From: a virus
Lineage: Duplodnaviria; Heunggongvirae; Uroviricota; Caudoviricetes
Virus record (IMG/VR): IMGVR_UViG_2663763232_000018
DNA: 7,488 nt
Reading direction: 5' to 3' (one strand)
Shown: piece by piece, positions 2,958-4,186 of the stretch
Numbering within the stretch: position 1 is the first letter of the stretch
How the letters are laid out: every line of letters begins with the position of its first letter
Position numbers and translations under genes: made by a program
Notes under the pieces: model-generated
Told to the model about the DNA's origin: nothing
The model's database searches: none
Seen by the model: only the letters and a program-made list of their open reading frames with translations

Positions 2958-3206
2958 ATGAGTAACGTAGCGAAACTTCAATTAGGTTTTTCACCGCTGA
3001 CTAAAAAAATCCAGTTGGCAAAGATGCGCGATGATGGGGAAGGGCGCCGCCTTCGCGTTGGTAGTGATCCTGGTCGTGATGTGACTAACGAAGCTGCGCA
3101 ATTAGTTTGGCAGTTGGTTATGTCTGAGGGAGGGGAAATCGGCTGGAACCTGTCGGACGGTAGCCGCATGGTTTTGAAAGCTGAGAAAGTGGGGCACGCA
3201 TCATGA
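2958..3206 (+). CDS. Hypothetical small protein, 82 aa (MSNVAKLQLGFSPLTKK...)
   Basis: ATG at 2958 follows SD-like AGAGG. Its stop overlaps the dam start as ATGA (3203-3206). Confidence 0.6.
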   Translation: MSNVAKLQLGFSPLTKKIQLAKMRDDGEGRRLRVGSDPGRDVTNEAAQLVWQLVMSEGGEIGWNLSDGSRMVLKAEKVGHAS

Positions 3207-4186
3207 GCAGCCCTATTATTCGCCCGTTCATCAAATGGGCAGGGGGTAAAACCCGTGTCCTTCCTGACCTGCTGCCGCACCTTCCTAAAGCCGACTGCCT
3301 GATCGAACCGTTCGTAGGCGGCGCATCGGTATTTCTGGCGACTGAGTACCGCCGCTATGTGCTGGCTGATATCAACCCGGATCTTATTAACCTTTATCGG
3401 GAAGTCACCCGTTACCCGGACTTAGTGATCGATGCGGCCCGCGAACTGTTCAACAGCAAGAACAGCCCGCAGGGGTACAACGAAGTCCGCGCCGCGTTCA
3501 ATAAGCAGGTATGTACGGTAAAAAGCGGTGGGTTGCGTTATGGCGTCGAAATGGCGCGCATCATGCGTGCTGCTCAATTCCTGTATCTGAACCGCCACGG
3601 TTATAACGGCTTATGCCGTTACAGCCGTAAGACCGGCTTTAACGTGCCGTTTGGCAAGTATAAGAGCGTCTACTTTCCTGAAAATGAAATCCGCCTGTTT
3701 GCCGAAAAGGCCAACGATACAAAGGCAATATTTCTTTGCGCGCCGTTCCAGCGTTCTCTACAGGTCGTCACGGGTGGCGATGTTCTCGTTTACTGCGATC
3801 CGCCTTACCTGCCTGAAAGCAAAACAGCCGATTTTACCCAATACCACACCGAACCATTCACGGAAGACAACCACCGCCAGTTAGTCCAGGCACTGCTGGA
3901 AGTTAACCGTAAGCATGGCGTGAAGGTTGTCATTTCCAACAGCGACACCGAAGCCACCCGCGCGATTTATCAGCCTTTCAAGATGCACGAAATCAGCGTG
4001 CAACGTTCCGTCAGCACTGACAAAGACAACCGCCAGAAGGCCAAAGAAGTGATCGGCGTGCTGCCTGTCTGCGACTGCTGCGGGCGTTACGGCGGCGGTT
4101 GCCCTGATTGTGGCGCCGTGATGGGTGATGCGACTTACAACGCGATGGTTGCGGCAGGCACGTTTGACGATCTGGAGGCGTTTTAA
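3203..4186 (+). CDS. dam: Dam-family N6-adenine DNA methyltransferase, 327 aa, orphan (no adjacent restriction enzyme), with Cys-rich C-terminal extension
   Basis: N-terminal KWAGGK (residues 11-16), SAM-binding-like [10 protein letters not shown], and catalytic DPPY (codons 3797-3808) are seen in the translation and are hallmark motifs of Dam-type MTases. A Cys cluster [14 protein letters not shown] (codons 4070-4111) lies in a C-terminal tail beyond the length of E. coli Dam. Confidence 0.85.
   Translation: [327 protein letters not shown]

What the first reader, a model, noticed from the sequence alone, without database searches (positions are those of the whole stretch)
3203..4186. Orphan Dam methyltransferase in the replication operon, with a Cys-cluster C-terminal tail
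The ORF has the KWAGGK, FVGG and DPPY motifs of Dam-class adenine MTases but is 327 aa against about 278 aa for E. coli Dam. The extra length includes a tail carrying [14 protein letters not shown] (five Cys in 14 residues, codons 4070-4111), which looks like a small metal-binding knuckle that I do not associate with canonical Dam. The gene is translationally coupled on both sides (ATGA at 3203-3206, TAATG at 4184-4188) and sits just upstream of the replication initiator, so it would be co-expressed with replication. Possible roles are anti-restriction, replication or packaging timing, or regulation of the switch.
Basis: partly seen in the sequence, partly recalled or inferred. Interest (0 to 1): 0.6.

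Follow-up and report, generated by a model that had tools for sequence, protein, structure and literature searches.

The report
Prophage Dam methylase with zinc-knuckle tail
This is an ordinary, already-annotated GATC DNA methylase of a P2-like prophage, but its cysteine-rich tail is an undescribed 30-residue module that also occurs in RecE exonucleases (including E. coli K-12 RecE) and in small early proteins of Mu-like phages.

Summary
ORF 3203-4186 encodes a 327-aa Dam-family N6-adenine methyltransferase (Pfam PF02086 E 5e-63; TIGR00571 above cutoff; E. coli Dam structure E 1e-70). It has the KWAGGK, FVGG and DPPY motifs, and its start and stop codons overlap the neighbouring genes. It lies in the early operon of a P2/186-like prophage (int, repressor, cox, ..., dam, a 59-aa ORF, replication gene A) and has no restriction partner.

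The gene is not new. It is 97.9% identical to the annotated dam of Enterobacter phage phiT5282H, and the exact protein is widespread in public assemblies.

The Cys tail is absent from the solved Dam structures but standard in this prophage subfamily: 85 of the 117 nearest cluster representatives carry CxxC-x5-9-CxxC. Four Cys are conserved (C290, C293, C300, C303); C292 is not.

The new result is that the tail core (VCxxCGxxGGGxCPDCGxVMGDATY) is a portable module. It also occurs in RecE/ExoVIII (K-12 RecE residues 517-540), in a DEDDh-type exonuclease, and in small early proteins of Mu-like and Aeromonas phages. No Pfam family, solved structure or searchable paper describes it.

It is most likely a Zn-stabilised accessory docking module, dispensable for catalysis. 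Its partner is unknown. The tail usually ends in an acidic stretch followed by Phe, loosely like the SSB tip. Interest is moderate.

The parts
3203..4186 (+). dam: 327-aa orphan Dam-family N6-adenine DNA methyltransferase (stop codon included)
   Evidence: ORF; PF02086 E 5e-63 over residues 12-269; TIGR00571 273 bits against a cutoff of 114.85; 97.9% identical to phiT5282H dam
3221..4060 (+). Methyltransferase core, residues 7-286, alignable to E. coli Dam residues 5-267
   Evidence: phmmer against PDB 2g1p_A, E 1.1e-70; AF2 model pLDDT 87; Foldseek top hits are E. coli Dam 4rtn/2g1p, TM(target) 0.91
3233..3250 (+). KWAGGK motif (residues 11-16); K11 aligns with E. coli Dam K9
   Evidence: Sequence; alignment; K11, W12, G14, G15, K16 invariant in 63 homologues
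3311..3322 (+). FVGG, AdoMet-binding motif I (residues 37-40)
   Evidence: Sequence; F37, V38, G39 invariant
3515..3556 (+). 14-residue insertion relative to E. coli Dam (residues 105-118), in a loop whose length varies among homologues
   Evidence: Gaps in the alignment; region of variable length in A1; pLDDT 60 for residues 101-110
3797..3808 (+). DPPY catalytic motif IV (residues 199-202); its codons GATCCGCCTTAC contain a GATC site
   Evidence: Sequence; D199, P200, P201, Y202 invariant; GATC at 3797
4070..4111 (+). C4 knuckle [14 protein letters not shown] (residues 290-303); candidate metal ligands C290, C293, C300, C303; C292 not conserved
   Evidence: The same CxxCG...CPDCG is found in RecE and small phage proteins. 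pLDDT 82-94 in the full-length model
4112..4159 (+). [16 protein letters not shown] (residues 304-319): the most conserved part of the shared module (G-x-VMGDATY), then a predicted short helix 309-317
   Evidence: V, M, G, D, T, Y invariant across six contexts; helix predicted both in the full-length model and in the tail alone
4160..4183 (+). C-terminal tip TFDDLEAF (residues 320-327): acidic stretch ending in Phe
   Evidence: Among the 117 nearest representatives, the last residue is F in 53, L in 14 and W in 10. Position table for the 85 knuckle-bearing tails: -1 F 43/85, -3 E 40/85, -6 D 29/85, -7 F 23/85
2958..3206 (+). Upstream 82-aa ORF (DUF7446); its stop overlaps the dam start (ATGA)
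   Evidence: PF24233 E 1.7e-17
4186..4365 (+). 59-aa ORF between dam and gene A (phrog_8110, function unknown); overlaps the dam stop (TAATG) and the gene A start (ATGA)
   Evidence: present in the same place in L003-L006
4362..6719 (+). Gene A: P2-type rolling-circle replication initiator (785 aa)
   Evidence: PF05840 E 5.7e-106
1472..1753 (+). cox: first gene of the early lytic operon that contains dam
   Evidence: PF10743 E 2.1e-23; same-strand, tightly packed ORFs from 1472 to 6719; no convincing terminator

Best explanation
The gene encodes a phage Dam, a GATC-specific, AdoMet-dependent N6-adenine methyltransferase of a P2/186-like (Peduoviridae) prophage. It is transcribed only as part of the early lytic operon (cox ... 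dam, ORF59, gene A). It is therefore made together with the rolling-circle initiator when the prophage is induced or infects a cell. Inferred role: it tops up the limiting host Dam so that rapidly replicating phage DNA is fully GATC-methylated before packaging. That would protect the DNA from GATC-directed restriction in a next host, and from MutH or SeqA acting on hemimethylated DNA.

The last 41 residues are not part of the catalytic machinery. They form a small accessory module: a four-cysteine (probably Zn) knuckle of rubredoxin-type signature (CxxCG ... CPDCG), the invariant peptide VMGDATY that starts a short helix, and an acidic tip ending in Phe. The knuckle-plus-VMGDATY core is a portable unit that temperate phages of gamma-proteobacteria attach to several early DNA-metabolism proteins: Dam, RecE-type and DEDDh-type exonucleases, and small proteins of Mu-like early regions.

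The most likely job of the module is protein-protein docking to a common host target. The phages that carry it share no obvious common partner gene, which argues for a host rather than a phage partner.

Shown: family membership, fold, motifs, operon position, conservation of the module, and its distribution. Inferred: GATC specificity, metal binding, timing of expression, the docking function and the host nature of the partner.
For: Dam identity: PF02086 E 5e-63; TIGR00571 273 bits against cutoff 114.85; E. coli Dam 2g1p E 1.1e-70; AF2 pLDDT 87, and Foldseek top hits are all E. coli Dam, then DpnM and T4 Dam.

GATC specificity (inferred): in the alignment the E. coli Dam residues K9, Y119, N120, L122, R124, P134 and Y138 are identical in the query (K11, Y134, N135, L137, R139, P149, Y153). 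That these are the DNA-contact residues is from my memory of Horton et al. 2006.

Orphan status and operon: same-strand overlapping ORFs; the same gene order int-C-cox-...-dam-orf59-A-(cargo)-portal-terminase in L003-L006; best PADLOC model is 'orphan MTase', E 1.3e-96. A prophage-encoded Dam homologue was reported as not transcribed in a lysogen (PMC4659465). GATC is not avoided in the window: 44 observed against 35 expected.

Tail as an accessory: homologues at 65-67% identity that lack the tail (277-280 aa) occupy the same slot in P2-like prophages.

Tail as a conserved, portable module: 85 of 117 nearest representatives have the knuckle. An exhaustive search with the tail finds non-Dam proteins P0158, P0161 and P0163. 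The tail alone hits phrog_20376 'exonuclease' at E 1.1e-7 and the NCBIfam ExoVIII model NF007259, positions 527-553, at E 3.2e-5. tblastn of the tail gives 64% identity over 35 aa to ExoVIII genes of many phages. K-12 RecE carries it at C517/C520/C528/C531 followed by GAVMGDATY. Of 80 IMG/VR loci with the motif, 73 are RecE-type, 5 are Dam and 2 are DEDDh-type exonucleases. Small proteins in Mu-like early regions also carry it.

Selection acts on the protein: codons vary synonymously within CPDCG.

Not DNA-binding by composition: net charge is -9 to +1 across eight contexts and -5 in this tail.
Against: No enzymatic, metal-binding or interaction data exist for this protein or, as far as the searchable literature shows, for the module. 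AF2 gives the tail alone only pLDDT 64, so autonomous folding is not shown; AF2 does not model Zn. In the full-length model the knuckle is confident (pLDDT 82-94). That could instead mean it simply packs on, and stabilises, the methyltransferase core. The hosts are Dam-positive Enterobacterales, so the selective benefit of a second GATC methylase is assumed, not demonstrated. The protein fails the NCBIfam equivalog cutoff for chromosomal Dam (279 bits against 441), so identical specificity is likely but not guaranteed.
Confidence: 0.6

Rival explanations
1. The tail is only a structural Zn clip. The knuckle caps the last beta-strand (EVIGVL) and stabilises the methyltransferase fold or its solubility, with no partner and no regulatory role.
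For: The knuckle directly follows the last core strand 279-286. It is predicted confidently only in the full-length context (pLDDT 82-94 against 59-63 alone).
Against: The same module occurs in the middle of an acidic, probably disordered linker of RecE, and at the end of 60-79-aa proteins that have no methyltransferase core to stabilise. The most conserved stretch (VMGDATY) lies after the knuckle. Tail-less Dam homologues exist in the same prophage slot.
Confidence: 0.15
2. The tail is a nucleic-acid-binding zinc knuckle. It would raise processivity or direct the enzyme to a particular DNA form (ssDNA, hemimethylated DNA, DNA ends), which would also make sense for exonucleases.
For: Every carrier with a recognisable catalytic domain acts on DNA. 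Small CxxC knuckles bind nucleic acids in other systems (general knowledge).
Against: The module is acidic to neutral (net charge -9 to +1; -5 here) with at most one or two basic residues, and in RecE it is embedded in Asp/Glu-rich sequence. Truncated RecE lacking this region is a fully active exonuclease: the nuclease domain is the last 260 residues (PMC11610958).
Confidence: 0.1
3. The acidic, Phe-terminated tail is an intramolecular regulator or a degradation signal. It would fold back into the basic DNA-binding cleft as a DNA mimic (like the acidic tails of SSB and T7 gp2.5), or mark potentially toxic early proteins for proteolysis.
For: Strong bias to an acidic stretch plus terminal F, L or W. 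Tail classes with other Cys patterns also end in ...DEDAF...DDRREF or ...EVEVF. Low pLDDT (65) of the last seven residues suggests flexibility.
Against: The tip is not part of the module shared with RecE and the small proteins. So this can explain at most the last 8 residues, not the knuckle. There is no direct evidence.
Confidence: 0.1
4. The tail is a functionless by-product of mosaic recombination at the dam 3' junction.
For: The dam 3' end is clearly a recombination junction. Many alternative tails exist, along with truncations and apparent fusions with the N-terminus of the downstream ORF (GFDPA... tails).
Against: Fourteen positions are invariant across six unrelated protein contexts, with synonymous codon variation. 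The module persists in 4511 of 5426 complete E. coli genomes within recE.
Confidence: 0.05

Closest known systems
E. coli Dam (M.EcoKDam; PDB 2G1P, 4RTJ-4RTS)
   Same: Same fold and motif order (KWAGGK, FxGxG, DNA-recognition region, DPPY). About 42% identity over 280 residues. The residues I recall as DNA-contact residues are identical in the alignment.
   Different: E. coli Dam has no Cys tail; it ends 11 residues after the core. This protein has a 14-residue loop insertion, is prophage-borne and expressed from an early lytic operon, and scores below the NCBIfam equivalog cutoff for chromosomal Dam.
Annotated dam of Enterobacter phage phiT5282H (Peduoviridae, Novemvirus), and Dam of Salmonella phages SEN4/SEN5, SW3, SW5 and SI7
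   Same: 97.9% amino-acid identity with the phiT5282H dam, including the whole tail, and the same gene neighbourhood.
   Different: Nothing of substance. None of these records annotates the tail, and no experimental characterisation was found.
RecE / exodeoxyribonuclease VIII of Rac-like prophages (E. coli K-12 RecE residues 517-540; Rac-SA53 RecE 541-570)
   Same: Shares the module CxxCGxxGG(G/D)[14 protein letters not shown]: 64% identity over 35 residues, and HMM hits in both directions.
   Different: In RecE the module is internal, in an acidic linker N-terminal to the 260-residue nuclease domain, and is not followed by a Phe-terminated tip. The catalytic domains are unrelated to Dam. The function of the RecE N-terminal part is stated to be unclear (PMC11610958).
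Rubredoxin-type zinc knuckles / zinc ribbons
   Same: Two knuckles with the signature CxxCG and CPxCG, and four Cys ligand candidates (general knowledge of the motif; sequence).
   Different: The knuckles are joined by only 6-7 mostly Gly residues instead of a beta-hairpin or a loop of about 30 residues. No Pfam zinc-ribbon model matches. Metal binding is untested.
SSB C-terminal tip (DDDIPF), the hub peptide that recruits many replication and repair proteins
   Same: The Dam tail ends F-D-D-L-E-A-F against SSB F-D-D-D-I-P-F: Phe at -7 and -1, Asp at -6 and -5. A variant Dam tail ends ...WESEENPIPL. The SSB-Ct sequence is as given in PMC5872125.
   Different: Pro at -2 is absent here and variable in the family (A 26, P 16 of 85). 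Acidity is lower. No binding data exist. This is a resemblance only.
Other phage-encoded Dam enzymes (T4 Dam, P1 Dmt)
   Same: Orphan GATC methylases made during lytic growth; same D12 class.
   Different: Only 21-30% identity; no Cys tail; different genomic contexts.

Membership tests
Dam family / D12-class (alpha-group) N6-adenine DNA methyltransferase | Significant match to the family profile above the curated threshold | tested here: met
   PF02086 213.6 bits against cutoff 22; TIGR00571 273 bits against cutoff 114.85
Dam family / D12-class (alpha-group) N6-adenine DNA methyltransferase | Catalytic (D/N)PP(Y/F) motif and AdoMet-binding FxGxG motif, in the alpha-group order (AdoMet region, recognition region, catalytic motif) | tested here: met
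   FVGG at residues 37-40 and DPPY at 199-202, both invariant in 63 homologues; order as in E. coli Dam
Dam family / D12-class (alpha-group) N6-adenine DNA methyltransferase | Dam fold | tested here: met
   AF2 model pLDDT 87; Foldseek E 1e-28, TM(target) 0.91 to E. coli Dam 4rtn
Dam family / D12-class (alpha-group) N6-adenine DNA methyltransferase | GATC recognition residues (E. coli K9, Y119, N120, L122, R124, P134, Y138) | tested here: met
   All seven are identical in the alignment (K11, Y134, N135, L137, R139, P149, Y153); N126 is S and R137 is K. The assignment of these residues as DNA contacts is from memory of Horton et al. 2006.
Dam family / D12-class (alpha-group) N6-adenine DNA methyltransferase | Methylation of adenine in GATC | not testable with these tools
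   Needs expression in a dam-minus host with DpnI/MboI digestion or SMRT sequencing
Chromosomal Dam equivalog (NCBIfam NF008152 / PRK10904) | Score above the equivalog cutoff | tested here: not met
   279.4 bits against cutoff 441. It is a Dam-family member but not the housekeeping orthologue.
Orphan (solitary) methyltransferase | No cognate restriction endonuclease gene nearby | tested here: met
   Neighbours are DUF7446, a 59-aa ORF and gene A. The 20-kb loci L003-L006 hold only prophage and host housekeeping genes. Best PADLOC model is oMTase.
P2/186-like (Peduoviridae) prophage early operon | Integrase, repressor, Cox, gene A initiator and P2-type structural genes in the canonical order | tested here: met
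   PF10743 Cox, PF05840 GPA, Fil-like PF10893; portal, terminase, GPO, P2 capsid and small terminase downstream in L003-L006; closest phage is classified in Peduoviridae
C4 zinc knuckle | Four conserved Cys in a CxxC ... CxxC arrangement | tested here: met
   C290, C293, C300 and C303 are conserved; C292 is not
C4 zinc knuckle | Stoichiometric metal binding | not testable with these tools
   AF2 does not model metals; needs ICP-MS, a PAR assay or a structure
Module shared with RecE/ExoVIII (undescribed; no Pfam entry) | Significant sequence match of the tail alone to RecE-family profiles and proteins | tested here: met
   phrog_20376 E 1.1e-7; NF007259 E 3.2e-5 at model positions 527-553; tblastn E 2e-7, 64% identity; K-12 RecE residues 517-540
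SSB-Ct-like docking tip | C-terminal acidic run ending in (I/L)-P-F with a free carboxylate | tested here: inconclusive
   Terminal F and D-D at -6/-5 are present, but position -2 is Ala, not Pro. In the family -1 is F in 43 of 85 and -2 is P in 16 of 85. Binding is not testable here.

The most novel reading that the evidence does not exclude
The knuckle-plus-VMGDATY unit is a portable docking module. In Dam it is extended by an SSB-tip-like acidic Phe terminus. Temperate phages would use this module to plug their own DNA enzymes (a Dam methylase, RecE-type and DEDDh-type exonucleases, small early effectors of Mu-like phages) into one host hub at the replication fork, such as SSB partners, SSB itself or another replisome component. 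For Dam this would mean replication-coupled methylation of phage DNA, a bacterial-virus analogue of DNMT1 riding on PCNA. It would also give a first function to part of the enigmatic N-terminal two-thirds of RecE.
Probability: 0.2. Interest if true: 0.7.

Novelty: new variant of a known kind. Interest (0 to 1): 0.4.

Why it matters
The methylase itself adds nothing new: prophage Dam genes of this type are abundant and already annotated. What may matter is the 30-residue Cys module. It is present in most E. coli genomes (within recE), in the RecE protein used for recombineering, and in several unrelated phage early proteins, yet it has no domain entry, no structure and no literature in the searched collection. 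If it is a docking module for a host factor, it would explain how different phages direct methylation and end-resection enzymes to replicating DNA. It would also give a handle on why full-length RecE behaves differently from the truncated nuclease, and it would identify a host hub that phages repeatedly target. If it is merely a structural clip, the finding is a minor annotation refinement.

Tried and rejected
1. Cis-acting DNA element under the tail codons: rejected. The DNA alignment of four contexts is 72% identical with third-position variation, and CPDCG codons vary (CCT/CCG, TGC/TGT, GAT/GAC) in 14 distinct sequences.

2. Dam control of the lysis/lysogeny switch through promoter GATCs: no GATC lies between 1361 and 1605.

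3. Dam linked to the replication origin: a P2-type ori core (6259-6274) is followed by a 14-bp perfect palindrome centred on a GATC. However, this GATC is present only in the closest relatives, and other Dam-bearing lineages lack it. It is not a general link.

4. Complementary distribution of an SSB-like tip between Dam and the small ORF upstream of gene A: the tip (DDELPF, DDDLPF) was seen in L009/L010 and L020. A table of 84 distinct loci showed no clean either/or pattern.

5. Beta-clamp-binding motif (QL[SD]LF) in the tail: no convincing match on inspection (sequences).

6. Known domain or structure for the tail: no Pfam hit. PDB sequence and fold matches stop at about residue 286. The only hint was a weak DZR hit, E 0.071, on P0163.

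7. AF2 on the tail alone: low confidence (pLDDT 64), so it was not used for a fold search.

8. The exhaustive phmmer search with the tail was dominated by unrelated repeat proteins matching only 'GDATY'-like strings (P0121-P0129 and others). I discarded these as motif noise after reading P0125 and P0129.

9. A profile search with the module alignment returned only 25 candidates, which was useful only for the small proteins.

10. Literature searches found no description of the tail or of the RecE knuckle: P2-like Dam, RecE + zinc, prophage Dam, the strings CPDCG/GDATY, and phiT5282H.
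Full report
CONTEXT. The 7.5-kb window is the lysogeny/early-replication end of a P2/186-like prophage. On the minus strand it carries an integrase (1-981) and an HTH repressor (1051-1410). On the plus strand it carries cox (1472-1753), several small ORFs (DUF4761, Fil-like, a 70-aa ORF, DUF7446), the ORF in question (3203-4186), a 59-aa ORF (4186-4365) and the P2-type rolling-circle initiator gene A (4362-6719; PF05840 E 6e-106). 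A cargo ORF runs off the end of the window. The exact 327-aa protein is on record in 489 blocks of the assembly collection. In four 21-kb loci the prophage lies next to cpxP/cpxRA and continues into portal, terminase, scaffold, P2 capsid and small-terminase genes. The closest deposited phage is Enterobacter phage phiT5282H (Peduoviridae). Its annotated 'dam' is 97.9% identical at the protein level, tail included.

THE OBSERVATION. One small correction: a 59-aa ORF lies between dam and gene A and overlaps both, with ATGA at 4362-4365. The extra length over E. coli Dam is a 14-residue insertion at about residues 105-118, in a loop of variable length, plus about 41 residues beyond the last alignable core residue.

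WHAT THE ENZYME IS. It is a Dam-family, D12-class N6-adenine methyltransferase. The evidence is PF02086 (E 5e-63), TIGR00571 (273 bits against cutoff 115) and E. coli Dam structures (E 1e-70 over residues 7-286). An AlphaFold model (pLDDT 87) has only Dam structures among its best PDB matches: E. coli Dam at TM 0.91, then DpnM and T4 Dam. In the pairwise alignment, E. coli Dam residues K9, Y119, N120, L122, R124, P134 and Y138 are all identical. I recall these as the DNA-contact residues from Horton et al. 2006. GATC specificity is therefore the reasonable inference. The protein does not reach the NCBIfam equivalog cutoff for the chromosomal Dam (279 against 441 bits), so it is a family member and not the housekeeping orthologue. 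No endonuclease gene is nearby, and the best PADLOC model is 'orphan MTase'. All genes from cox to gene A are on one strand, tightly packed or overlapping, with no convincing terminator. Co-expression with the replication initiator during lytic growth is therefore likely. A paper on E. coli ST131 reports a prophage Dam homologue (M.EcoMIV) as not transcribed in the lysogen (PMC4659465), which fits repression of such operons in the prophage state.

THE TAIL WITHIN THE DAM FAMILY. The tail is missing from the solved Dam enzymes but is not peculiar to this gene. Of the 117 nearest full-length cluster representatives (53-98% identity), 85 carry CxxC-x5-9-CxxC after the last core strand EVIGVL. Most continue with G-P/A-x-x-G-D-A-T-Y-N-x-M and end in an acidic stretch followed by a hydrophobic residue. 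The four conserved Cys are C290, C293, C300 and C303; C292 is usually Gly. Other members have different Cys-rich tails or unrelated tails. Some have no tail at all (277-280 aa), for example an Edwardsiella prophage Dam that occupies the same slot upstream of gene A. The tail is therefore dispensable for a Dam in this position, and the 3' end of dam is a mosaic junction.

THE TAIL OUTSIDE THE DAM FAMILY. This is the main new result. An exhaustive search with the 47 C-terminal residues found the same peptide in proteins that are not methyltransferases. Profile and translated searches confirmed it: the tail alone hits PHROG 'exonuclease' families (phrog_20376 E 1e-7), the NCBIfam ExoVIII model at positions 527-553 (E 3e-5), and the exodeoxyribonuclease VIII genes of dozens of Rac-like and lambdoid phages (64% identity over 35 residues).

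In Rac-SA53 RecE (1048 aa) the module is [31 protein letters not shown] at residues 541-570, inside a very acidic linker. In E. coli K-12 MG1655 RecE (866 aa) the knuckle is C517/C520/C528/C531, followed by GAVMGDATY up to residue 540. [quoted passage not shown] The corresponding recE stretch is found in 4511 of 5426 complete E. coli genomes.

Of these, 73 are RecE-type proteins, 5 are Dam, and 2 are an 823-aa exonuclease with a different, DEDDh-like C-terminal domain. The module also ends small proteins of 60-79 aa in the early regions of Mu-like phages, next to Kil, DUF3164 and GemA. It ends a 153-aa protein between Kil and Gam and lies near the C-terminal end of a 190-aa protein upstream of a PAPS-reductase-like gene. 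It also sits inside a 299-aa hypothetical protein of an Aeromonas phage.

Across six of these contexts, 14 positions are invariant: C..-G....G.CPDCG.VMGD.TY. Codons within CPDCG vary synonymously, so the constraint is on the peptide and not on the DNA. No Pfam model covers the module, and no paper in the searchable library mentions it.

HOW IT PROBABLY WORKS. The CxxCG ... CPDCG signature is that of rubredoxin-type knuckles, so a single structural metal ion (probably Zn) held by four Cys is the obvious reading. This cannot be tested here. AlphaFold predicts a short helix starting at the conserved DATY (residues 309-317), both in the full-length protein and in the tail alone. The knuckle itself is confident only in the full-length model (pLDDT 82-94 against about 60).

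The module is acidic to neutral in every context (net charge -9 to +1), which argues against DNA binding. Catalysis probably does not need it, because tail-less Dam homologues occupy the same prophage slot and the RecE nuclease domain lies outside it. It is carried by phages with very different gene sets (P2-like, Rac/lambdoid, Mu-like, an Aeromonas phage), which makes a shared phage-encoded partner unlikely. The explanation I consider most likely is therefore a Zn-stabilised protein-docking module aimed at a host factor relevant to replicating or recombining DNA.

In Dam, and not in the other carriers, the module is extended by a tip that usually ends in Phe after acidic residues. Among the 117 nearest representatives the last residue is F in 53, L in 14 and W in 10. 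Among the 85 knuckle-bearing tails, E at -3 occurs in 40, D at -6 in 29 and F at -7 in 23. The tip here, F-D-D-L-E-A-F, resembles the SSB tip F-D-D-D-I-P-F (DDDIPF as quoted in PMC5872125), and a variant Dam tail ends in ...WESEENPIPL. This is a resemblance and not a test: the Pro at -2 is missing here.

For the enzyme as a whole, I infer that it completes GATC methylation of rapidly made rolling-circle progeny DNA. GATC is not avoided in the window (44 observed against 35 expected), as expected for a phage that relies on methylation rather than on losing the sites.

WHAT DID NOT HOLD UP. There is no GATC in the repressor-cox control region, nor anywhere between 1361 and 1605, so direct methylation control of the switch is unlikely. 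Searching from my memory of the P2 origin, I found a P2-type ori core at 6259-6274 inside gene A (one mismatch; 0.04 matches expected by chance). It is preceded by a 6-bp-stem hairpin and followed by a 14-bp perfect palindrome, CGCGGGATCCCGCG (6283-6296), centred on a GATC. The core and the hairpin are conserved, and the hairpin shows compensatory changes across about 70 gene A sequences. The GATC palindrome, however, occurs only in close relatives, so it does not link Dam to origin function in general. An apparent swap of an SSB-like tip between Dam and the small ORF upstream of gene A (DDELPF in L009/L010, DDDLPF in L020) did not give a clean pattern over 84 distinct loci.

VERDICT. The gene is an already-annotated, very common prophage Dam, and its tail is the norm for its subfamily. 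What is new, and of moderate interest, is that the tail core is an undescribed portable mini-module shared with RecE (including the K-12 protein used in recombineering) and with several other phage early proteins. Its function is unknown. A host-factor docking role is the best-supported guess and is directly testable.

Noticed in passing
window 6243-6296 (inside gene A): Putative P2-type replication origin: a hairpin GGCGGC-AAC-GCCGCC (6243-6257), the core CTCGGAGTTCTGTCAA (6259-6274, one mismatch to the P2 ori as I remember it), then a 14-bp perfect palindrome CGCGGGATCCCGCG (6283-6296) centred on a GATC. The core is conserved, and the hairpin shows compensatory changes in about 70 related gene A sequences. 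The GATC palindrome occurs only in close relatives.
   Followed up: partly
L009 6145-6432, L010 6145-6432, L020 4975-5238 (ORF between dam and gene A in related prophages): The 87-95-aa ORF immediately upstream of gene A ends in ...DDELPF or ...DDDLPF, very close to the SSB C-terminal tip DDDIPF. Its C-terminal part resembles the window's 59-aa ORF (4186-4365), which lacks such a tip. This may be an SSB-tip mimic in the replication module of some P2-like phages.
   Followed up: partly
dam 3' end, window about 4060-4186, and loci L011-L173: Both ends of dam are mosaic junctions. Relatives show at least five alternative tails, truncations after the first half-knuckle, and tails containing a 'GFDPA..G.D.SV' motif that otherwise begins the downstream ORF, which suggests fusions. 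Close relatives have a different upstream gene and start dam with MIRPF instead of MSSPIIRPF.
   Followed up: partly
L233 (IMG/VR), 823-aa ORF; also L227: An exonuclease carries the same Cys module at about residue 562 but ends in a DEDDh/DnaQ-like 3'-5' exonuclease domain instead of the RecE-type nuclease. The N-terminal part plus module is therefore combined with interchangeable nuclease domains.
   Followed up: no
window 6709-7488 (+), runs off the end: A cargo ORF of at least 259 aa follows gene A and has only 'unknown function' PHROG hits (phrog_16519, phrog_4838), no Pfam search done and no PADLOC hit. In related prophages this slot holds other cargo (AAA ATPase + S8 peptidase; HTH + M78 peptidase), as expected for a variable, possibly defence-related locus.
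   Followed up: partly
whole window: Some palindromic tetramers are depleted relative to a second-order expectation: CTAG 1 against 4.9, GTAC 5 against 15, GGCC 24 against 43. GATC is slightly enriched (44 against 35). This may reflect restriction-site avoidance for sites the phage cannot methylate.
   Followed up: no
window 3797-3808: The codons of the catalytic DPPY motif (GAT CCG CCT TAC) themselves contain a GATC site, so the enzyme's own active-site codons are a substrate site. This is probably trivial.
   Followed up: no
L003-L006, positions about 6100-8000: The prophage is integrated immediately downstream of cpxP (LTXXQ protein) and cpxRA in several genomes, so the attachment site lies next to the Cpx envelope-stress locus.
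   Followed up: no
L019, L025, L029 (gene after dam); L007 1445-1603: In several related prophages dam is followed by a PAPS-reductase-domain gene (PF01507) or by a C5-cytosine-methylase-like gene before gene A. The non-Dam module carrier P0158 also sits directly upstream of a PAPS-reductase-like gene.
   Followed up: no
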